From NCBI GenBank assembly GCA_001783805.1, contig MFNS01000005.1, positions 1,636 through 65,635 of the forward strand: DNA of 64,000 bases. The letters run 5' to 3'. The notes below the pieces were generated by a model, which was not told the origin of the DNA, searched no databases, and saw only the letters and a list, made by a program, of their open reading frames with translations. Positions 943 to 45,934 of this stretch are shown here, piece by piece. This stretch comes from Candidatus Levybacteria bacterium RIFCSPHIGHO2_01_FULL_40_16 (lineage in GTDB: Bacteria; Patescibacteriota; Microgenomatia; Levybacterales; UBA12049). Positions within the stretch are counted from its first letter, which is position 1. Every line of letters begins with the position of its first letter. The position numbers and the translations under genes were made by a program.

Positions 943-1260
943 ATGAAGAAGAATATATTTGTAGATAAGAATGCCGAAAGGGAACTGCGGGAGTTTGGTG
1001 AGGAAATACAGTTAGAATTTGAAGCGTATATTAAAATTCTAGGGCTTGAAGGAAAACTGGATTTTCCCCATGCGAAGAAGATTACGAGAGATTTATTTGA
1101 AATTAGAATTAAATTAAAAGGAGAATATCGCTCTCTTTATGCTTATATAGGAAAATTAGATATTGTCGTTTTACATTTTTTTAGAAAGAAAACACATAAA
1201 ACACCGATAAAAAATCTGGAATTAGCTCAAAAGAGGCTTAAATTATATGAATTCCATTAA
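943..1260 (+). CDS. Type II toxin, HigB/RelE-like (Gp49/DUF891-type)
   Basis: 105 aa with a ...LDFPHAKKITRDLFEIRIKLKGEYRSLYAY... motif typical of Gp49-like HigB toxins. It overlaps the downstream HTH gene by 14 nt. A paralogue sits at 45227..45580. Confidence 0.7.
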   Translation: MKKNIFVDKNAERELREFGEEIQLEFEAYIKILGLEGKLDFPHAKKITRDLFEIRIKLKGEYRSLYAYIGKLDIVVLHFFRKKTHKTPIKNLELAQKRLKLYEFH

Positions 1261-1549
1261 TCAAGCTGTTAAAAAAGGAAACCTTATCGCTTATAGCGAT
1301 CTTTTTGCCGGTTATTCTAAGAAACATCAGCAGGAGATTTTAAAGAGAGCAAGATATCTAAAAGCTGCAATGGAACTCAAAAAACTAAGAAAAGAATTGA
1401 AGATTTCTCAAGGAGAATTGGCTCATAAAATGAAGGTGAAAAGGGAATTTATCACCAGGATCGAAAGCGGAGAGCAGAATGTAACCATTGAAACGTTGAA
1501 TCGGGTAGCTGAAGCTACGGGCAAAGAGTTTGAGTTCCATTTCAGATAA
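1247..1549 (+). CDS. HTH XRE-family antitoxin (HigA-like)
   Basis: LKKLRKELKISQGELAHKMKVKREFITRIESGEQNVTIETL is a classic Cro/C1-type helix-turn-helix. It is translationally coupled to the upstream toxin. Confidence 0.75.
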   Translation: MNSINQAVKKGNLIAYSDLFAGYSKKHQQEILKRARYLKAAMELKKLRKELKISQGELAHKMKVKREFITRIESGEQNVTIETLNRVAEATGKEFEFHFR

Positions 1550-1868
1550 TTTTTGAATATGATATTTTCTAAATCTACTTGCGGTCTTTGCAAACCAACG
1601 AAAAGATATAAAAGAAATAATACAAAATTAAAAAACGTAATTAAACGTGCCATGCTGGAAGATGAGCTTACAGTAAATCTGATTAGAAGTTTCTCGAAAT
1701 CTTAATTTCTGCTTAGTCTGAGAAAAATCCTCAAGAAACGGGGGATTTCTTTCTTCAAATTCAAACTTAACTCCTCTTTGTCATCCTGAAATTGCGCCAC
1801 CTCCACAGAGGGAAGTCCTTTTGGAGGAGCTCAGGATCTCCCAAAAGTAGTTTTTTTATATGTTTTCT

Positions 1869-2035
1869 TTGTACTTTTGGCCGCAAAAGTACCAAAAACT
1901 CGCGAGCCGTGAAAGGTCGCTAAAATTGCTCAGTCGTTAATCGGGTGATTTGCACCCCCTCCTCAACAGGTTTGTGAGGAATCCCCCTGATAACTCCTTC
2001 GCAATTTTTCAACGCGCTGCTTTCAATGCTCGCAC
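1869..2035 (+). repeat. Structured dispersed repeat, copy A (candidate ncRNA or MITE)
   Basis: Shares conserved blocks with copies at 18438-18660, 37085-37282 and 44910-45077. The blocks are TTGTACTTTTGACCGCAAAAGTAC; CTCTGCGAGCGGTAAAGTCGCGC; TCGGGTGATTTGCACCCCCTCCTCGA, then a variable loop, then GAGGAATCCCCCTGA; and CGCTTTGTTTAATGCTCGCAC. Confidence 0.7.
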
Positions 2036-2080
2036 GTTATGTTTTGAATTGGGCTGGGGGGGGTGGGGCGCCCGGGATTT

Positions 2081-16293: not shown

Positions 16294-16437
16294 TCCAATT
16301 TTCAATTTGCAATTTTCAATCAATTTTCAATGATTAAATGTTTAAAAATTAAAACATTTAGATTTCATTCAAGATTTCGAATTTAAAATTTAAAATTTGA
16401 CTCTGTCATCCATTTTTGTTACCATTTCTTCTCAACC

Positions 16438-18238: not shown

Positions 18239-18295
18239 GAGCGGATGTTATTTGGCCCCCTTCGCCCGTTGGGCTTCGGAGGGCTAAATGTATCG

Positions 18296-18420
18296 AAAGT
18301 ATCACGGCTTTTTAGATTTTCTATTTAGATTTATCCAGCACCTTTTGGGTGTTGGATGAAATCCAAGCAGTTTTAATTAATTTTAGAAAGGTGCTGGATT
18401 AATTCTTATCGTGATACTTT
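18296..18420. repeat. Long hairpin (nested inverted repeats) abutting repeat copy B
   Basis: The arms GTATCACGGC...CCAGCACCTTT and AAAGGTGCTGG...CGTGATAC pair, with an 11-bp perfect inner stem. Confidence 0.4.
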
Positions 18421-18437
18421 TGGTATAAAGTATATTC

Positions 18438-18660
18438 TTGTACTTTTTTCCGCAAAAAGTACCAAAAGCTCTTTGCGAGTGAAAGTCGCGCCCCAAGGGC
18501 ACTAGCTTCTTCGAAGCGGCGGCTATTTTGCTCGCTCACTTATCGGGTAATTTCACCCCCTCCTCAATCTCGCTTTGCCAAGTCTGACTTGGCTTTGCTC
18601 GCTGAGGAATTCCCCTGACGCGTTCGCTCACAAAAACTTAACGCTCTTTGTTTCAGTCGC
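18438..18660 (+). repeat. Structured dispersed repeat, copy B (most diverged; carries insertions)
   Basis: GTACTTTTTTCCGCAAAAAGTAC hairpin with a compensated 1-bp insertion. GGGTAATTTCACCC and CCTCA...TGAGG stems co-vary with the other copies. The internal loop contains CCAAGTCTGACTTGG. Confidence 0.65.
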
Positions 18661-18680
18661 AAAATTAAGACAGAAGAGGT

Positions 18681-36750: not shown

Positions 36751-37084
36751 GCAATGATTATTTTAAATTTGACATGAGACTTATAGCGTGGCATAAGCTG
36801 TTCATGGGAAAAGCAGAAATCTTAGAAAGAATTAATAGGCTAGGGCAGAATCTATTCCAGAGAGCAAGATCTAAGGAAAAAACGCTCCCAAAGAAAATCC
36901 CTACGAAAGGATAAAGGTAATATATGAATAGTTGCCCAAAAATTCAGATTCGATTGTAAGTACAAAAACTTTATTGATTAAGAACAAATCAGGCCGAAAA
37001 TCAAAGATTTACTTTTATCCATCTATTTGTTCGGATTCGATGTATGCTCAGACGGGCTGAGTTGGAAAGTTAACTAATTTTTTT

Positions 37085-37282
37085 ACTTACTTTTGACCGC
37101 AAAAGTAACAAAACTCTGCGAGCGGTAAAGTCGCGCTACATTTTTTCGCTCGTTTTGTCGGGTGATTTGCACCCCCTCCTCGATTCCGATCGAATCGGAA
37201 CGAGGAATCCCCCTGACAACTCGCTCAAAAATGCCTCCTGCCTGCCGGCAGGCAGGTAACGCGCTTTGTTTAATGCTCGCAC
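37085..37282 (+). repeat. Structured dispersed repeat, copy C
   Basis: First hairpin TTACTTTTGACCGCAAAAGTAA (G-C to T-A covariation relative to other copies). GGGTGATTTGCACCC and CCTCG...CGAGG stems enclose an internal hairpin TTCCGATCGAATCGGAA. Ends CGCTTTGTTTAATGCTCGCAC, followed immediately by R-family copy R3. Confidence 0.7.
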
Positions 37283-37293
37283 TTATTTTTAAT

Positions 37294-39033
37294 TTAATTA
37301 ACCGTTTGGGAGAGTTTGGAGAGCGGCGTTGCGGTGGGCCTTGGGGCATCATAAGATGGTTTAACTGCATCTGTAGCCGGAAGCGAAAAAGAAAAGGTCG
37401 TGCCTTGTCCCGGAACGGATTTTACCCATATCCTTCCCTCGTGTGATTCAATGATCCCCTTGACCAGATAAAGTCCCAGTCCCGTACCCATGGTAGTAAT
37501 TTCTTCGGACGTATTTTTGGCCTGCGTATACTTGGAGAAAAGCAATTTTTGCTGTTCGGGCGAGAGTCCGACTCCGTTGTCCGAGACGGAAACCACAATA
37601 TATTTGTCCAGACTTAAAAACTCTCCCATCGGCGATATGCCGTCCAAAACCGGAGGAATAGTTTTGTAGTCTATTTCAACCTTTATTTTTCCTCCCTCCG
37701 GGGTGAATTTGAGGCTGTTTGACAATAAATTATCAATTACCTGGCTGATTCTTATTTCATCAAAAGAAATTTCCGGCAGAGATTTCGTAGCAACATTGAA
37801 GCTCAAGGAAATATTTTTCCGCTCTGCCTGAGGCGTAAAAGTTTGAATTTCATCTTTAATTAATTTGGCAATATCGCCTTTGGTTTTTTGCAGAACTAAT
37901 TTTCCCGCATCAAGCTTGGCAGTATCCAAAATCGAACCGATTTGTCCCAGAACTTTTTTTGCCTGCTGATGGATAATTTCCAAGAATTTTAATTTTTTGT
38001 CTTCCTCAAGAGTATCTTTGGACGTAACAATCAATTCTGCCGAATCTTTGATGGTTGTAACCGGCGCGCGTAATTCATGAACCATAATGTGGATCAAGTC
38101 TTCTTTCAGCAACTCTTTCTTTTTGTAGTCCGTCATGTCATGCAGGATAACCGATATCCGATCGTTTGGCATTGGATTTATAAAGATATTTAAGATATTG
38201 TTATTAACTTGAATTTCTTTGGCAAACTGTGGCTTTTTACTAATTAAAACTTCATTGATTTTGTTTCCCAAGTTGAAATTTTGCCCAAAAACATTTAAGA
38301 CATCAAAAAAATCAGCATTTAAGTTCACTCCCAAGATTTTTTTTGCGGAATCATTAATTATCAATAAGTTATTTTTACTGTCAGCCATAATGATTCCGTC
38401 ATTTATGCTCATAATTAATGAAGAGAATTTTTCTGTTTCCGAATCAACGGCCCGGCTAAAATGCGTTAAGGCCGATTGAGCCGTATCGATTAGCTCATGC
38501 AGATCTCCCATATCGGAGTAAGCATTTTCCGCAGTTGAGGATAGATAGATGAGAGCCAAGACTTTGTTGTTGGCAATAAGGGGTAGATGAAAAGATGATG
38601 AGTAGATTGATTTAACGGTATTATCTATAGGTATCCCGTACATCTGTCTGTCGATTTTCAAGGGCAGTTTGCCAACGAGTTTTTCAAATGAAGACAGCAT
38701 GTCTTCCTCAAGTTTTTTTACGTATTCCGGTCCAACCTGATCTTCGCAATAAATTTTAAAAACAATCCGTGCATCTTTTACCACCATGGATGCTGTTGCG
38801 GAATAACTAAAAAAATTCCGCAAGGAAACAATGATAATGTCAACTACTTTTTCGGGATCGGTTGAGTAAGCTATTTTTTCTTGAATCTCTTTAATTACGG
38901 ACAGCTTGTAAATCCTATCTTCTTCCTTCTTCCTTGTCCCAAGAGAAGCTTTCTGTAGCTTGTCATTTTCCAAAGATAGAAGAACAGCAATTAACCACCC
39001 TATTAGGAGGGTGATAAAAAAAGCAATTTCCAT
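37294..39033 (-). CDS. Sensor histidine kinase (N-terminal TM, PAS-like, HisKA, HATPase_c)
   Basis: H-box HELRAPVTTIKDSAELI; N/G boxes DNGVGLSPEQQ...GTGLGLYLVKGIIESHEGRIWVKSVPGQGTTFSF. The last ~18 codons and the stop codon are encoded by R-family repeat R3. Confidence 0.9.
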   Translation of the reverse strand: MEIAFFITLLIGWLIAVLLSLENDKLQKASLGTRKKEEDRIYKLSVIKEIQEKIAYSTDPEKVVDIIIVSLRNFFSYSATASMVVKDARIVFKIYCEDQVGPEYVKKLEEDMLSSFEKLVGKLPLKIDRQMYGIPIDNTVKSIYSSSFHLPLIANNKVLALIYLSSTAENAYSDMGDLHELIDTAQSALTHFSRAVDSETEKFSSLIMSINDGIIMADSKNNLLIINDSAKKILGVNLNADFFDVLNVFGQNFNLGNKINEVLISKKPQFAKEIQVNNNILNIFINPMPNDRISVILHDMTDYKKKELLKEDLIHIMVHELRAPVTTIKDSAELIVTSKDTLEEDKKLKFLEIIHQQAKKVLGQIGSILDTAKLDAGKLVLQKTKGDIAKLIKDEIQTFTPQAERKNISLSFNVATKSLPEISFDEIRISQVIDNLLSNSLKFTPEGGKIKVEIDYKTIPPVLDGISPMGEFLSLDKYIVVSVSDNGVGLSPEQQKLLFSKYTQAKNTSEEITTMGTGLGLYLVKGIIESHEGRIWVKSVPGQGTTFSFSLPATDAVKPSYDAPRPTATPLSKLSQTVN

Positions 39034-40025: not shown

Positions 40026-41879
40026 ATGGGTTTTTACTATGTTTGTGATAAAATAAATATTGCGATGGATATAAAAGCGGAAATCATTTCGGTTATTAAG
40101 CAGTCTTTGGGGGAATTTACAAAGGAAAGAATCGAATTTTTGGTTGAAGAGCCGGAAAATGAAAGTTTTGGCGACTACTCGTCGAACATCGCACTTGCTC
40201 TGTTCTCAAAATCAAAAATCAAAAATCAAAAATCAAAAACACAGTTCAAAATTCAAAAGTTAAGAAGTCCCCCGGAGTTGGCACAAGAAATTATAGATAA
40301 ATTCATAATTCATGATTCGCAATTCATGATTCATTTTGACCGAGTTGAAGCAGTGAAGCCGGGATTTATCAATTTCTATCTCTCGCAAGATTATTTATTT
40401 TCACAACTGACAAGAATTTTGGAAGAAAAAGAAAAATTTGGTTCTAAAAGTGAAAATCCGAACAAGAAAGTTGTTGTTGAGTATTCCTCGCCAAATATAG
40501 CTAAACCCTTTACTGTTGGTCATCTTCGGTCAACAATTATCGGAGACGCCATCGCCAATTTGTTGCAAGCAAACGGGTGGAAAGTTTACCGGGATAATCA
40601 TCTGGGAGACTGGGGAACACAATTCGGAAAACAAATTTATGCCATCAAAACTTGGGGAGATGAAAACGAAATTAACAAAGTTGAGAATCCGGTCAGGGAA
40701 TTGGTGGCTTTATATGTCAAGTTTCACGAGGAAGCGGAAAGGAATCCGAAATTAGAAGAAAAAGCGCGGGAATGGTTTAAAAAGCTTGAAGACGGAGATG
40801 TAGAAGCGAGAAGACTTTGGAAAAAATGCGTTGAATGGTCGCTTGTGGAATTTAAAAAGATTTATGAAAAACTGAGAGTTGAATTTACGGAAAACAATGG
40901 ACTGGGTTATGGGGAAGCCTTTTTCGAAGATAGAATGACAGGAGTAATTAGGGAGCTTAAAGAAAAAAAATTACTCAAAAAAGGAGAACGGGGAGCGGAA
41001 TTGGTTTTCTTTGAAAAAGATAAATATCCGCCTCTAATGATTCTAAAGCAGGATGGAGCAACTTTGTATGCAACCCGGGACTTGGCAACGGACAAATTTA
41101 GGCTAGATAAATATGGAAAAGATATTGTCATAATCAACGAAGTTGGAGTAGAGCAGGCTTTATATTTCCGGCAGCTTTTTAAGGTTGAAAAAATGCTGGG
41201 GTGGGTTAAGGAAGGGCAGAGAATTCACAAAAGACATGGCTTGTATAGATTCAAAGACCAAAAAATGTCCACGCGCAAGGGGAATACAATTTGGCTTGAA
41301 GAAGTTTTGCAAGAAGCGGTTAAAAGAGCGGAAAAACTTGGTTCGGAAAATAAGGAAATAGCGGAAGAAGTTGGAATTGGGGCAATTAAGTGGAATGATT
41401 TGAAAAGAACTTCGGAACAAGATATTGTTTTTGACTGGGACGAAATTCTCAATATGCAGGGAGATTCCGGACCGTATTTGCAGTATGCGTTCGCAAGAAC
41501 GCAGAGCGTTCTTTTGAAAGCAACAAGTGATAAGAAAAAAGAAGCAAGTAGCAAAAATAAAATTAAAAATGAGATTGGCCTTGCAAGGATAATGCTTGCA
41601 AGGCCTCTCCTTGCAAGACTAGAGACGGAAGAGATTTCATTATTGCGGGCGTTGAATAGATTTCCGGAAGCGGTTAGTCAGGCGGGGGAGAAGTTTGCGC
41701 CGAATATTTTGTGCAATTATTTGTTTGGTCTGGCTCAAAAGTTTAATTTGTTTTACCAAAAACATAAGATCATTGGCTCGGAAAATCAGGATTTTCGCCT
41801 TAAACTAACTGCCGGAGTCGGGCAAATCATCAGAACAGGTCTCAACCTTTTGGGGATTGCTGCGCCGGAGAAGATATAG
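40026..41879 (+). CDS. argS: Arginyl-tRNA synthetase
   Basis: The Arg_tRNA_synt_N region, class I core (SSPNIAKPFTVGHLRSTIIGD) and C-terminal DALR anticodon-binding domain are present. It carries in-frame insertions derived from the (AAATCAA)n microsatellite and from a CCTTGCAAGG palindrome. Confidence 0.95.
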   Translation: MGFYYVCDKINIAMDIKAEIISVIKQSLGEFTKERIEFLVEEPENESFGDYSSNIALALFSKSKIKNQKSKTQFKIQKLRSPPELAQEIIDKFIIHDSQFMIHFDRVEAVKPGFINFYLSQDYLFSQLTRILEEKEKFGSKSENPNKKVVVEYSSPNIAKPFTVGHLRSTIIGDAIANLLQANGWKVYRDNHLGDWGTQFGKQIYAIKTWGDENEINKVENPVRELVALYVKFHEEAERNPKLEEKAREWFKKLEDGDVEARRLWKKCVEWSLVEFKKIYEKLRVEFTENNGLGYGEAFFEDRMTGVIRELKEKKLLKKGERGAELVFFEKDKYPPLMILKQDGATLYATRDLATDKFRLDKYGKDIVIINEVGVEQALYFRQLFKVEKMLGWVKEGQRIHKRHGLYRFKDQKMSTRKGNTIWLEEVLQEAVKRAEKLGSENKEIAEEVGIGAIKWNDLKRTSEQDIVFDWDEILNMQGDSGPYLQYAFARTQSVLLKATSDKKKEASSKNKIKNEIGLARIMLARPLLARLETEEISLLRALNRFPEAVSQAGEKFAPNILCNYLFGLAQKFNLFYQKHKIIGSENQDFRLKLTAGVGQIIRTGLNLLGIAAPEKI

Positions 41880-44884: not shown

Positions 44885-44909
44885 CTTTGTTATCTGATCT
44901 TTATTTTTC

Positions 44910-45077
44910 TTGTACTTTTGACCGCAAAAGTACCAAAACTCTGCGAGCGGTAAAGTCGCGCTAAAATTATCTCGTTCGCTAGTCGGGTGATTTGCACCCC
45001 CTCCTCGACAAGTTTGCGAGGAATCCCCCTGACAGCTCACTTGACAATTTCTTGACGCGCTTTGTTTAATACTCGCA
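44910..45077 (+). repeat. Structured dispersed repeat, copy D
   Basis: TTGTACTTTTGACCGCAAAAGTACC...TCGGGTGATTTGCACCCCCTCCTCGACAAGTTTGCGAGGAATCCCCCTGACAGCTCAC...CGCGCTTTGTTTAATACTCGCA. Confidence 0.7.
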
Positions 45078-45226
45078 TTTTTAAATTATTCATGCATTCA
45101 ACTGCGAACGACGGTCAATTTTTTTTGAGACGAGGAAAATTGCAAAGAGTATTAATTCAACCAAAACGCAGCATTGACCAAAGGCGTGCAGGTCTTGATC
45201 TCAAAATTTTCTGCTAGAATAAGTTC

Positions 45227-45580
45227 ATGGATCAGAAGTGGAAAATCTTATACTACAAAACTTCACAGGGAACTGATCCTGTTCATGATTTTATCGATAG
45301 CCTAGATGAAAAGATAAAAGCAAAGATTATAGATGCGCTAGATTTGCTCGAAGAATTTGGGGTAAGGCTAGGATTACCTCATGCCAAAAAACTAACAGGA
45401 ACTCCTTTATGGGAACTTCGGGTCGTTGGAAGCGGCAACATTAGAATTTTCTACGTTGCTGTCGTTAGTAAAACTTTTCTTCTGCTTCATGGTTTCCAAA
45501 AGAAAAAACAGAAAACAAACAGGAAAGAAATCAAAATAGCCATTTTTAGATTAAAAGAACATGTTGAGCGGTCAAAATAG
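45227..45580 (+). CDS. Type II toxin, HigB/RelE-like (Gp49/DUF891-type), paralogue
   Basis: LGLPHAKKLTGTPLWELRVVGSGNIRIFYV shares its motif with 943..1260. Confidence 0.7.
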   Translation: MDQKWKILYYKTSQGTDPVHDFIDSLDEKIKAKIIDALDLLEEFGVRLGLPHAKKLTGTPLWELRVVGSGNIRIFYVAVVSKTFLLLHGFQKKKQKTNRKEIKIAIFRLKEHVERSK

Positions 45581-45622
45581 GTTCTTGCAATTATTACAAT
45601 ATTGTGATAATGTTATATTATT

Positions 45623-45892
45623 ATGGATTGGAAAACACATAGAGCAGAATTATTAAAAGATCCGAAAGTAAAAAAAACTTGGGAAGAAAATAGGCTGGAA
45701 TACGAAATTGCCAGAAGTATTATCCGCGCAAGAATAGGGCAGGATTTAACGCAGGAGCAATTGGCTCATAAGCTTAAAACCAGACAATCGGTTATCTCCA
45801 GAGTCGAAAATGCAAAAACAGTCCCCTCATTATCATTTCTAAAAAGGTTGGCAGCAGCGCTGAACACCTCACTCTCTGTCCAATTCCGCTAG
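45623..45892 (+). CDS. HTH XRE-family antitoxin (HigA-like), paralogue
   Basis: RIGQDLTQEQLAHKLKTRQSVISRVENAKTVPSLSFLKRLAAAL is a helix-turn-helix. Confidence 0.75.
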   Translation: MDWKTHRAELLKDPKVKKTWEENRLEYEIARSIIRARIGQDLTQEQLAHKLKTRQSVISRVENAKTVPSLSFLKRLAAALNTSLSVQFR

Positions 45893-45934
45893 CCATCCCT
45901 AAAATCTGATCTCGCAAGGCCTGGCCTTGCGAAG

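What the first reader, a model, noticed from the sequence alone, without database searches (positions are those of the whole stretch)
1869..2035. Four co-oriented copies of a ~170-220 nt structured element with compensatory base changes (candidate novel ncRNA family or IS200/605-like MITE)
Copies lie at 1869-2035, 18438-18660, 37085-37282 and 44910-45077. All are on the plus strand regardless of neighbouring gene orientation, and all are intergenic. Shared architecture runs 5' to 3'. First, a hairpin GTACTTTTG-ACCG-CAAAAGTAC: copy C has TTACTTTTG/CAAAAGTAA, and copy B has a compensated T/A insertion. Second, CTCTGCGAGCGGTAAAGTCGCGC. Third, a GGGTGATTTGCACCC hairpin (GGGTAATTTCACCC in copy B). 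Fourth, a helix CCTCG/CGAGG that becomes CCTCA/TGAGG in copies A and B, a double compensatory change. This helix encloses a loop that varies freely among copies and is itself a hairpin in copies B and C. Fifth, GAGGAATCCCCCTGACA. Sixth, a 3' block CGCTTTGTTTAATGCTCGCAC whose GCTCGCA pairs with the 5' TGCGAGC, closing the whole element. Sequence conserved only in stems, variable loops and paired substitutions are the signature of a functional folded RNA, or a folded single-stranded transposition intermediate. It is not a by-product of nearby coding. There are no terminal inverted repeats and no associated transposase or RT ORF. Two copies sit next to the two HigBA-like modules; copy C abuts an R-family repeat.
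Basis: seen in the sequence. Interest (0 to 1): 0.8.

Follow-up and report, generated by a model that had tools for sequence, protein, structure and literature searches.

The report
Structured mobile repeat behind Patescibacteria genes
The four copies are real members of an undescribed family of about 175-230-base non-coding elements that fold into a hairpin plus a long stem capped by an invariant three-way junction; the family is scattered behind genes in Levybacteria and other Patescibacteria, comes and goes between related genomes, and is most likely a small mobile element, possibly also used as RNA.

Summary
The window has exactly four copies, all on the + strand: 1867-2039, 18436-18668, 37083-37286 and 44908-45082.

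- **Family:** a covariance model built here finds 71 copies in the window plus 90 fetched loci, nearly all in Levybacteria or other Patescibacteria MAGs.
- **Fold:** 93.5% of pair cells are paired, against 70% shuffled and 38-50% slid. 37 of 46 pairs change on both sides.
- **Not catalogued:** Rfam 15 has no match, and literature searches found nothing.
- **Anatomy:** T-rich leader, 5' hairpin, CAAAA linker, then a long stem closed by the two ends. The stem is capped by a junction, GGGUG/CACCC hairpin, CC, UCC…GGA hairpin, single-stranded AAUCCCCCU, that is invariant in all pattern-selected copies.
- **Turnover:** copies are present or absent at syntenic junctions. Six ndk relatives and syntenic L030 lack copy D. 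Near-identical paralogues have sharp ends, and remnants and chimeras occur.
- **Location:** mostly gene 3' ends, with 21 convergent junctions plus 7 tail-to-tail pairs against 6 divergent.
- **Pairing chemistry:** helices are almost purely Watson-Crick, with no G·U excess. No promoter, sense terminator or partner gene is conserved.

Best reading (0.5): a non-autonomous mobile element that folds as a single strand. Main rival (0.3): a functional 3'-end RNA.

The parts
1867..2039 (+). Copy A (type 1). P1 hairpin 1871-1892. P2 strands 1902-1907 and 2028-2033. Junction core 1940-1992: Pa 1943-1957, Pb 1960-1980, single strand ATCCCCCTG 1981-1989.
   Evidence: R1 scores 165 bits. Fold z = -4.6. The nearest relative is L030:2121-2299, 86% identical, at a non-orthologous locus.
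18436..18668 (+). Copy B (type 1, expanded). P1 18440-18462. P2 18472-18478 and 18657-18663. Core 18542-18620. It has an extra 31-nt insert in the 5' arm and a long Pb extension.
   Evidence: R1 scores 115 bits. It is 89% identical to the copy at the same junction in L076, whereas the flanking genes are 67-74% identical. It is absent at that junction in the closer relative L042.
37083..37286 (+). Copy C (type 1). P1 37087-37108 (TTAC…GTAA). P2 37117-37124 and 37274-37281. Core 37157-37218. It lies antisense to both neighbouring genes.
   Evidence: R1 scores 144 bits. Fold z = -6.3. Its first 52 nt are almost identical to copy D, but the inner arms differ, so it is a mosaic.
37237..37256 (-). 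GC-rich hairpin CCTGCCTGCCGGCAGGCAGG inserted in the 3' arm of copy C. On the minus strand it is followed by AGGCATTTTT. It is a likely intrinsic terminator of the histidine kinase gene 37294-39033(-).
   Evidence: The terminator scan found it. GC-rich hairpins sit at the same alignment position in L002, L072 and L024.
44908..45082 (+). Copy D (type 1). P1 44912-44933. P2 44942-44947 and 45072-45077. Core 44982-45034. It starts 23 nt after the ndk stop codon.
   Evidence: R1 scores 167 bits. It is absent downstream of ndk in six ndk relatives, L097-L102, and in syntenic L030.
45090..45118 (+). Remnant of the 3' end of a type-2 family member (TCATGCATTCAACTGCGAACGACGGTCAA), directly after copy D.
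   Evidence: By eye, it matches the type-2 3' arms seen (for example L042 and L044). L042 and L040/L055 show the same layout, a full copy followed by the 3' end of another subtype.

Best explanation
The four copies belong to a Patescibacteria-wide family of non-coding, non-autonomous mobile repeats.

**The unit.** It runs from a perfect 9-10 bp hairpin (P1) to the 3' strand of a closing helix (P2). In between is a rod of about 60 bp, with conserved tandem UC/UC mismatches, that ends in an invariant three-way junction.

**Proposed mechanism (inferred).** The element is copied as a folded single strand, DNA or a nucleic-acid intermediate. A factor encoded elsewhere in the genome recognises the junction. 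The arms only have to pair, so they drift with compensatory changes.

**Where copies land (inferred).** New copies land in T-rich tracts just after a stem-loop. Such tracts occur after gene-end terminators, after the P1 of a resident copy, and at the T/A-rich point in a resident 3' arm. This would place them behind stop codons in the sense orientation, give tail-to-tail pairs between convergent genes, and leave solo P1s. Recombination between adjacent copies would then give chimeras and 3' remnants.

**Shown:** the family, the fold, the location bias, the gain and loss of copies, the sharp unit ends and the remnants.

**Inferred:** the single-stranded intermediate, the trans-acting factor and the target rule.
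For: **Fold**
- 93.5% of pair cells are paired, against 70% in shuffles and 38-50% when partners are slid. 37 of 46 pairs change on both sides.
- RNAalifold independently recovers P1, P2, Pa and Pb.
- Pa covaries in copies not chosen by the search pattern: GGGUG/CACCC becomes GGGAG/CUCCC or GGGGG/CCCCC.

**Turnover**
- Copy B is absent at its junction in L042.
- L041 and L042 carry a copy at window junction 16293|16438, which is empty in the window.
- L030 has copies at two junctions that are empty in the window.
- None of six ndk relatives has copy D. L097, whose NDK is 95% identical, has a 41-nt ndk-higB spacer where the window has 342 nt.

**Duplication**
- L012/L062 (96.6% identical) and L058/L060 (97.2%) lie in the same MAGs. 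Their identity starts at P1 and ends at P2'.
- Copy A is 86% identical to a copy at a different locus in a genome whose genes are about 70% identical.

**Decay and nesting**
- L071 has a 5'-truncated copy.
- Solo P1s lie upstream of at least 8 copies, and 3' remnants follow window D, L042 and L040/L055.

**Safe-site bias**
- There are 21 convergent junctions against 6 divergent (p = 0.006). With the 7 pairs this becomes 28 against 6 (p = 0.0002).

**Pairing and transcription signals**
- G·U pairs (35-52) are no commoner than A·C mismatches (47-67). P1 has 452 Watson-Crick cells, 0 G·U and 3 A·C.
- No promoter or sense U-tract is conserved.
- Some copies follow canonical terminators, for example L032, L065 and L022.
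Against: - No enzyme was found. No protein family recurs next to copies beyond synteny, and the Pfam hits near copies are unrelated housekeeping or toxin-antitoxin genes.
- There are no terminal inverted repeats or target-site duplications, so no known transposition chemistry is indicated.
- Copies within one genome are mostly old, 65-82% identical in the window, unlike a recent MITE burst.
- The junction is invariant in all pattern-selected copies, from MAGs labelled Levybacteria, Saccharimonadales and other Patescibacteria. The stem tips vary in length. Both features are also typical of functional RNAs.
- Orientation follows the upstream gene: 7 of 7 pairs are tail-to-tail, and tandem contexts are 14 sense against 6 antisense. 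Selection on a transcript would explain this as well as a target rule does.
- The invariance of the core is partly built in, because the search pattern required it.
- No clean, recent filled-versus-empty site pair was recovered.
Confidence: 0.5

Rival explanations
1. A functional cis-acting RNA module at mRNA 3' ends. It would be co-transcribed with the upstream gene. The rod and junction would act as a processing site, a barrier to exonucleases, or a factor-loading site (for example Rho, on the C-rich single strands), insulating convergent genes. Its spread would be secondary.
For: - Orientation is sense to the upstream gene: 7 of 7 pairs are tail-to-tail, and tandem contexts are 14 against 6. 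In 14 of 46 copies the stop codon lies 2-7 nt before the model start.
- No own promoter is conserved, which fits co-transcription.
- The junction is invariant, with exposed C-rich strands and variable stem tips.
- The sense strand is C-rich (46-66 C against 34-45 G), against the window's positive GC skew.
- Covariation is strong.
Against: - There is no G·U preference, and none at all in P1.
- Several copies lie behind canonical terminators.
- By my reading of the ORF list, only about 2 of 10 convergent junctions in the window carry one.
- Close relatives do without it at the same genes.
- There is no U-tract after any sense hairpin.
- Copy C is antisense to both neighbours.
Confidence: 0.3
2. 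An independently transcribed, trans-acting small RNA family. Its invariant C-rich loops (CACCCCCUCC, AAUCCCCCU) would pair with G-rich ribosome-binding sites, as the C-rich motifs of RsaE/RoxS do (comparison from general knowledge).
For: - Two unpaired C-rich segments are invariant.
- The family is multi-copy, like some sRNA families.
- The unit has discrete structural ends.
Against: - There is no positional -10 or -35 signal upstream in 65 copies. Near-identical paralogues diverge immediately upstream of P1.
- No intrinsic terminator follows P2'.
- Many copies begin about 10 nt after a stop codon.
Confidence: 0.07
3. A new self-cleaving ribozyme or ligand-binding RNA whose catalytic or binding core is the junction.
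For: The pattern of a highly conserved junction, variable peripheral helices and multi-copy dispersal resembles twister or hammerhead distributions (general knowledge). There is no Rfam match.
Against: - No sequence resembles a known catalytic core.
- The same problems with G·U pairs and with transcription apply as for the other RNA readings.
- Nothing here could test this reading.
Confidence: 0.05
4. A MITE derived from IS200/IS605 (a PATE) or an orphan omega-RNA, mobilised by TnpA or used by TnpB.
For: - There are no inverted repeats and no target duplication.
- It has a 5' subterminal hairpin.
- A T-rich sequence always lies to its left.
Against: - There is no local hairpin at the 3' end.
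- Tail-to-tail pairs show that orientation is not set by replication direction.
- No tnpA or tnpB lies next to any of 71 copies.
- The Rfam omega-RNA/HEARO models do not match.
Confidence: 0.05

Closest known systems
REP/REPIN elements with RAYT transposases (BIMEs of enterobacteria and pseudomonads)
   Same: - Non-coding, intergenic and multi-copy, mostly at gene 3' ends and between convergent genes.
- They fold as long imperfect hairpins, have no adjacent transposase, often occur as inverted pairs, and persist for long periods.
- P1 is a palindrome of REP size.
   Different: - A REPIN is two inverted REPs without a conserved asymmetric three-way junction.
- REP sequences are near-identical within a genome and carry a conserved 5' tetranucleotide.
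- No RAYT gene was found or could be searched for genome-wide here.
Transcribed MITE-like repeats: Neisseria Correia, enterobacterial ERIC/IRU, Bacillus cereus bcr1, Rickettsia RPE
   Same: - They are 100-200 bp dispersed repeats with a predicted stable fold.
- They show presence/absence between relatives and are often co-transcribed at gene ends.
   Different: - Those have terminal inverted repeats and target-site duplications (TA, TTTAT and others). Neither is seen here.
- They are confined to a genus or family, whereas this junction is shared across distant Patescibacteria lineages and across subtypes with unrelated arms.
Folded single-stranded DNA sites: integron attC, CTX-phage attP, single-strand origins (ssoA) of rolling-circle plasmids
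   Same: - The structure, not the sequence, of the arms is conserved.
- A few unpaired nucleotides are invariant and the sites are orientation-dependent.
- attC sites sit at the 3' end of cassette genes.
   Different: - There are no R''/R' core sites.
- There is no integrase and no co-oriented array, since tail-to-tail pairs occur.
- The context is neither a plasmid nor a phage: only 1 chance hit in 2.9 million viral contigs.
IS200/IS605 MITEs (PATEs) and TnpB/IscB omega-RNAs
   Same: - No inverted repeats and no target duplication.
- Hairpin-based ends.
- A structured non-coding region of about 150-250 nt.
   Different: - There is no 3' end hairpin.
- There is no link to tnpA, tnpB or iscB.
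- Orientation is not tied to replication.
- There is no variable guide-like segment next to the 3' end.
RNase III processing hairpins of phage T7 early mRNAs and REP mRNA stabilisers
   Same: If the element is transcribed, an irregular long hairpin with symmetric internal loops placed right after a coding region would work like these 3'-end-forming or protecting structures.
   Different: - This is a functional analogy only.
- No transcript or cleavage evidence exists.
- Those elements have no conserved three-way junction.

Membership tests
Any Rfam 15 family (including 6S, retron msr, HEARO/omega-RNA, OLE, raiA, ROOL) | Covariance-model score at or above the family's gathering score. | tested here: not met
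   No copy gets a hit at the gathering threshold or at E<=10 on the whole window. On copy D alone with lax filters, only a 13.6-bit miRNA artefact on the hairpin appears.
Classical MITE | Terminal inverted repeats and a target-site duplication. | tested here: not met
   I compared the ends and flanks of the four copies by eye, and those of the near-identical pairs L058/L060, L012/L062 and L022/L076. The two termini are unrelated and no consistent direct repeat flanks the unit.
IS200/IS605-derived MITE (PATE) | Related subterminal hairpins at both the left and right ends. | tested here: not met
   There is a 5' hairpin (P1). The 3' end is one strand of the long-range helix P2, not a local hairpin.
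IS200/IS605-derived MITE (PATE) | Orientation coupled to replication direction (insertion into the lagging-strand template). | tested here: not met
   Seven adjacent pairs are tail-to-tail, so both orientations occur at one place. The 4/4 + strand copies in the window and the 46/62 positive skew are explained by gene orientation.
IS200/IS605-derived MITE (PATE) | Insertion 3' of a fixed tetra- or pentanucleotide. | tested here: inconclusive
   The 8 nt around the model start are 72-86% T, but no fixed word is shared.
IS200/IS605-derived MITE (PATE) / REPIN | A cognate HUH transposase (TnpA or RAYT) in the same genome. | not testable with these tools
   Only 64 kb of this genome and pieces of up to 8 kb of the others were available. 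None was seen among neighbours.
REPIN | Two inverted REP palindromes of 20-40 nt forming the hairpin, with near-identical copies clustered around a master sequence. | tested here: not met
   The architecture is P1 plus a rod plus an asymmetric junction. Window copies are 65-82% identical, and only 2 near-identical pairs occur among 71 copies.
Intrinsic (Rho-independent) terminator | A GC-rich hairpin directly followed by a U-tract on the transcribed strand. | tested here: not met
   The scan reports no strong terminator-like site on the sense strand. Its only hits inside a copy are a weak 5-bp + strand site in copy C (37122-37134) and the minus-strand hairpin inserted in copy C. After P2' the sequence is A-rich, then only mildly T-rich.
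Retron msr/msd or omega-RNA | An adjacent RT, TnpB or IscB gene. | tested here: not met
   The neighbours of the four copies are Gp49/HTH, NDK, HisKA, TPR/Wzy and zf_Tbcl. No neighbour family recurs in 58 loci.
Integron attC | R''(RYYYAAC)…R'(GTTRRRY) core sites, with arrays of co-oriented sites near an integrase. | tested here: not met
   I saw no R' at the 3' end. Tail-to-tail pairs and dispersed single copies occur.
Structured functional RNA (generic) | Covariation that preserves helices. | tested here: met
   Searches show it. The caveat is that alignment A3 is fitted to the model. Covariation in Pa comes from copies not selected by the search pattern.
Structured functional RNA (generic) | Strand-specific tolerance of G·U over A·C. 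| tested here: not met
   There are 35-52 G·U against 47-67 A·C, leaving out one constant G·U column. P1 has 0 G·U in 458 cells.
Structured functional RNA (generic) | Evidence of transcription with defined ends. | not testable with these tools
   No expression data were available, and no conserved promoter was found.

The most novel reading that the evidence does not exclude
The element is a new class of large structured RNA specific to Patescibacteria. Its invariant three-way junction would be a catalytic or factor-binding core, for example a self-processing or Rho/RNase-recruiting 3'-end module. The RNA itself would be the copied unit, which would explain why the duplicated unit coincides exactly with the folded domain. 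That would make it an RNA-defined mobile element with no known counterpart in bacteria.
Probability: 0.15. Interest if true: 0.85.

Novelty: new variant of a known kind. Interest (0 to 1): 0.55.

Why it matters
- **Gap in knowledge.** Patescibacteria have genomes of about 1 Mb with very little known mobile DNA or regulatory RNA. Yet this window carries four copies of a 175-230 nt element in 64 kb.
- **An unknown partner.** The element's core is shared by MAGs labelled Levybacteria, Saccharimonadales and other Patescibacteria. That implies a conserved, unidentified partner, either an enzyme or an RNA-binding factor, in these reduced genomes.
- **Practical value.** The family gives a ready marker for genome rearrangement and strain typing. 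The model also prevents spurious gene calls, such as ORFs 37083-37370(-) and 37162-37446(+) that overlap copy C.
- **A cautionary test case.** It is a clean example of how compensatory changes can arise without proof of RNA function, because the helices are purely Watson-Crick.
- **If it is an RNA.** It would add a large structured RNA class that Rfam lacks.

Tried and rejected
- **Rfam.** I searched three ways and found nothing.
- **Phage origin.** A viral-contig scan gave one GC-rich chance match that does not fold like the element.
- **Partner gene in cis.** All-against-all clustering of 283 neighbouring ORFs gave only syntenic groups of 3-4 loci. Pfam found nothing relevant in window neighbours, nor in the small ORF flanked by two copies in L040.
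- **Own promoter or terminator.** There is no positional -10/-35 enrichment and no sense U-tract.
- **Replication-strand bias.** The window copies are all on the G-rich + strand, but tail-to-tail pairs rule this out as the determinant.
- **Alternative core pairing AUCGGG/CCUGAU.** This scored well by column counts. I rejected it in favour of the Pa hairpin, because Pa covaries in the variant-core copies.
- **Coding potential.** An AUG after GAGGAA in some copies gives a 7-codon ORF that the window copies lack.
- **Hammerhead-like CUGAUGA, 16S 3'-end mimicry and group II domain V.** These were resemblances seen by eye only, and they are not consistent across copies.
- **Strain variation in copy D.** The contigs carrying the identical NDK are the same strain, with 0-1 differences.
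- **Literature.** Five searches returned nothing on such an element.
- **tRNA control for the G·U/A·C ratio.** I abandoned this as too small.

Full report
**1. The observation**

The four stretches are present as described and align over their whole length.

- The 12-mer CACCCCCTCCTC occurs exactly four times, all on the + strand.
- GAGGAATCCCCCTGA occurs in all four copies with at most one mismatch.
- The 20-nt hairpin occurs three times at up to 3 mismatches, against none in shuffles. Copy B has a one-pair-longer version.
- A covariance model built later (R1) gives the limits 1867-2039, 18436-18668, 37083-37286 and 44908-45082.
- With all filters off, R1 finds no further copy in the 64 kb. 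The next hits, at 20 bits or less, are the palindromic hairpin read on the other strand.
- Each copy folds better than dinucleotide shuffles (z -3.6 to -6.3), and about equally well on either strand.

**2. A large family, not a local curiosity**

One scan of 185,579 species genomes for GGGTNATTT(N)CACCCCCTCC returned 90 loci. About 60 matches in these loci also carry the second motif and the hairpin.

- These come from MAGs named Levybacteria/Levyibacteriota, 'Patescibacteria group' and Saccharimonadales.
- Others are labelled 'uncultured Gammaproteobacteria' but are syntenic with the window and with Levybacteria contigs, so those labels look wrong.
- The window itself is 78-85% identical over several genes to a Levybacteria contig, L042.
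- Rfam 15 has no match at any threshold.
- Only one chance match exists in 2.9 million viral contigs.
- Five literature searches found no description.

**3. Anatomy**

Single-sequence folds of many members agree, as do RNAalifold runs on the two arm subtypes. The order from 5' to 3' is:

- a T-rich leader;
- P1, a 9-10 bp hairpin;
- a CAAAA(G)CUC linker;
- a rod of helices, P2 to P7, formed by the 5' and 3' halves;
- a three-way junction made of Pa (GGGUG-AUUU(G)-CACCC), the dinucleotide CC, Pb (UCC NNN … NNN GGA, with a free tip), the single strand A-AUCCCCCU, and then GAN pairing with NUC.

The arms carry conserved UC/UC tandem mismatches (…GCUCAC… facing …GUUCGC…).

I built R1 from 24 type-1 copies (A2). 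It finds 71 copies in the window plus 90 loci, including type-2 copies whose arms share no sequence with type 1.

On that alignment 93.5% of pair cells are standard pairs, against 70.3% after shuffling and 38-50% with partners slid. 37 of 46 pairs show changes on both sides. The alignment is fitted to the model, which inflates pairing. RNAalifold's own prediction on it still keeps P1, P2, Pa and Pb.

The core's invariance is partly built in by my search pattern. Seven copies found only by the model have different cores, and these covary in Pa: GGGAG/CUCCC and GGGGG/CCCCC. They keep the CCCCCUG strand. This also decides between Pa and an alternative AUCGGG/CCUGAU pairing.

**4. Where copies sit**

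No protein family recurs beside them. The window neighbours are two Gp49/HTH (HigBA-like) pairs, NDK, a histidine kinase, a TPR/Wzy protein and a zinc-finger protein.

| Context | Copies |
|---|---|
| Between convergent genes | 21 |
| Tail-to-tail pairs between convergent genes | 14 (7 pairs) |
| Between divergent genes | 6 |
| Tandem genes, sense | 14 |
| Tandem genes, antisense | 6 |

- Convergent against divergent gives p = 0.006 without the pairs and p = 0.0002 with them.
- Seven pairs all tail-to-tail has a chance probability of about 6e-5. Some of the pairs may be orthologous, so they may not be fully independent.
- The tandem split of 14 to 6 is not significant (p = 0.12).
- In 14 of 46 cases the upstream stop codon lies 2-7 nt before the model start.
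- There is no positional -10/-35 signal upstream and no U-tract after any sense hairpin. The 8 nt around the start are 72-86% T.
- Some copies follow a canonical terminator or another hairpin, for example L032, L065, L022, L086 and L042. Overall, 31 of 65 copies have an upstream hairpin, against 17 of 57 control windows.

**5. Turnover**

- Copy B is at the same junction in L076 but absent in the closer relative L042.
- L041 and L042 carry a copy at window junction 16293|16438, which is empty in the window.
- L030 has copies at two junctions that are empty in the window, and it lacks copy D.
- I fetched six loci encoding NDK proteins 87-95% identical to the window's. None has an element after ndk. 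L097 has ndk, a 41-nt spacer and then higBA, where the window has 342 nt.
- L012/L062 and L058/L060 are 96.6% and 97.2% identical pairs within single MAGs. Their identity begins at P1 and ends at P2'.
- Copy A is 86% identical to a copy at a different locus in L030, and copy B is 89% identical to L076. The surrounding genes are only 67-74% identical.
- Decayed and nested forms are common:
  - L071 keeps only the 3' two-thirds of the copy A homologue.
  - Solo P1 hairpins precede at least 8 copies.
  - Full copies are followed by the last 20-30 nt of another subtype in window D (45090-45118), L042 and L040/L055.
  - L055 differs from L040 by one extra P1 module.
- Copies C and D share a nearly identical first 52 nt but differ in their inner arms, so they are mosaics.

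**6. RNA or DNA?**

The helices are almost purely Watson-Crick. Leaving out one constant G·U column, there are 35-52 G·U cells against 47-67 A·C cells. P1 has 452 Watson-Crick cells, 0 G·U and 3 A·C.

From general knowledge of RNA families, G·U pairs are tolerated far better than A·C. So selection here does not look like selection on one transcript. It fits better with a fold needed on DNA or on both strands, or with template-directed correction of inverted repeats.

Against that, orientation follows the upstream gene. The sense strand is also C-rich, against the local GC skew.

Four copies carry a GC-rich hairpin inserted at the same point of the 3' arm: window C (37237-37256), L002, L072 and L024. 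It reads as a terminator for the antisense strand. This suggests the element alone does not stop antisense transcription.

**7. Interpretation**

The best-supported reading is a non-autonomous mobile repeat.

- It would be copied as a folded single strand.
- A trans-encoded factor would recognise it through the invariant junction.
- It would preferentially land in T-rich tracts after stem-loops, such as gene-end terminators and resident copies.
- Recombination between neighbouring copies would then produce chimeras and remnants.

The family, fold, location, turnover and unit ends are shown. The intermediate, the factor and the target rule are inferred. I give this reading 0.5.

The main rival, at 0.3, is a functional 3'-end RNA module. 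It would be a processing or stabilising hairpin, or a loading site for a factor on the C-rich strands, and its spread would be secondary. The two readings are not exclusive.

Readings as a trans-acting sRNA, a ribozyme or an IS200/605 PATE each have specific evidence against them.

**8. Comparison and novelty**

The element behaves most like REP/REPIN, ERIC, Correia or bcr1-type structured intergenic repeats, and like folded-ssDNA sites such as attC. It fails the defining features of each family that could be tested:

- no terminal inverted repeats or target duplications;
- no paired REPs;
- no 3' hairpin;
- no attC core sites;
- no link to replication direction.

Its asymmetric junction, invariant in all pattern-selected copies and shared by arm subtypes with unrelated sequence and by distant Patescibacteria, has no counterpart that I could find. 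I class it as a new variant of a known kind.

There is a 0.15 chance that it is instead a new structured-RNA class in which the RNA domain itself is the mobile unit.

Noticed in passing
window 18290-18425: A long conserved stem (GTATCGAAAGTATCACGG … CGTGATACTTTTGGTAT) lies just 5' of copy B. It is kept in syntenic L042, where no element follows it. It may be a separate structured element or ncRNA. Rfam gives only a weak miRNA artefact (24 bits) there.
   Followed up: partly
window 1790-1850: A hairpin GTCATCCTGAA…CTCAGGATCTC lies upstream of copy A. Shorter versions (ATCCTGAAC-TTG-TTTCAGGAT followed by a T-run) sit 8-16 nt before copies in L022, L086 and L042. They look like intrinsic terminators of the upstream genes, or another small palindromic repeat family.
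   Followed up: partly
window 37237-37256 (-): A GC-rich hairpin is inserted in the 3' arm of copy C. It reads as a minus-strand terminator for the histidine kinase gene. CCCCGC…GCGGGG hairpins are inserted at the same alignment position in L002, L072 and L024.
   Followed up: partly
window 45090-45118: The last 29 nt of a type-2 family member lie directly after the type-1 copy D. This implies at least two successive insertion events behind ndk in this lineage.
   Followed up: yes
window 2040-2075: A G-rich tract (GGGCTGGGGGGGGTGGGGCGCCCGGG) lies right after copy A. It is conserved with the element's 3' part in L071, although all other flanks differ. It is complementary in composition to the element's C-rich loops.
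   Followed up: no
window 41577-41617 and 45912-45932: Palindromes are built on CTTGCAAGGCC/GGCCTTGCAAG.
   Followed up: no
window 16335-16360: A perfect AT-rich hairpin TAAATGTTT…AAACATTTA lies in the 145-nt spacer 16294-16437. This is the junction where L041 and L042 carry a family member.
   Followed up: no
window 943-1549 and 45227-45892: Two Gp49 (HigB-like) plus HTH (HigA-like) pairs are present. The second is kept in relative L097 without the element, so the proximity to copies A and D is incidental.
   Followed up: yes
L072 236-399 and 1454-1618: Two weak model hits keep P1, P2 and the arm motifs. An unrelated AU-rich apex replaces the three-way junction. They may be a sister family on the same chassis, or decayed copies.
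   Followed up: partly
L002, L014, L025, L027, L030, L034, L041, L047, L052, L055, L058, L060, L071, L078, L084-L087, L089: TPA MAGs titled 'uncultured Gammaproteobacteria' carry the element. Several are syntenic with the window and with Levybacteria contigs, so the organism labels appear to be wrong.
   Followed up: partly
L099 3633-4523: A DDE_Tnp_1 transposase gene lies two genes downstream of ndk in Levybacteria MAG JACPLF010000005.1. This shows the ndk-VKOR interval is a variable spot in these genomes. No family member is nearby.
   Followed up: no
window 37083-37370 (-) and 37162-37446 (+): Mechanical ORFs of 94-95 aa overlap copy C. They are not conserved in other copies and are likely to be spurious.
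   Followed up: partly
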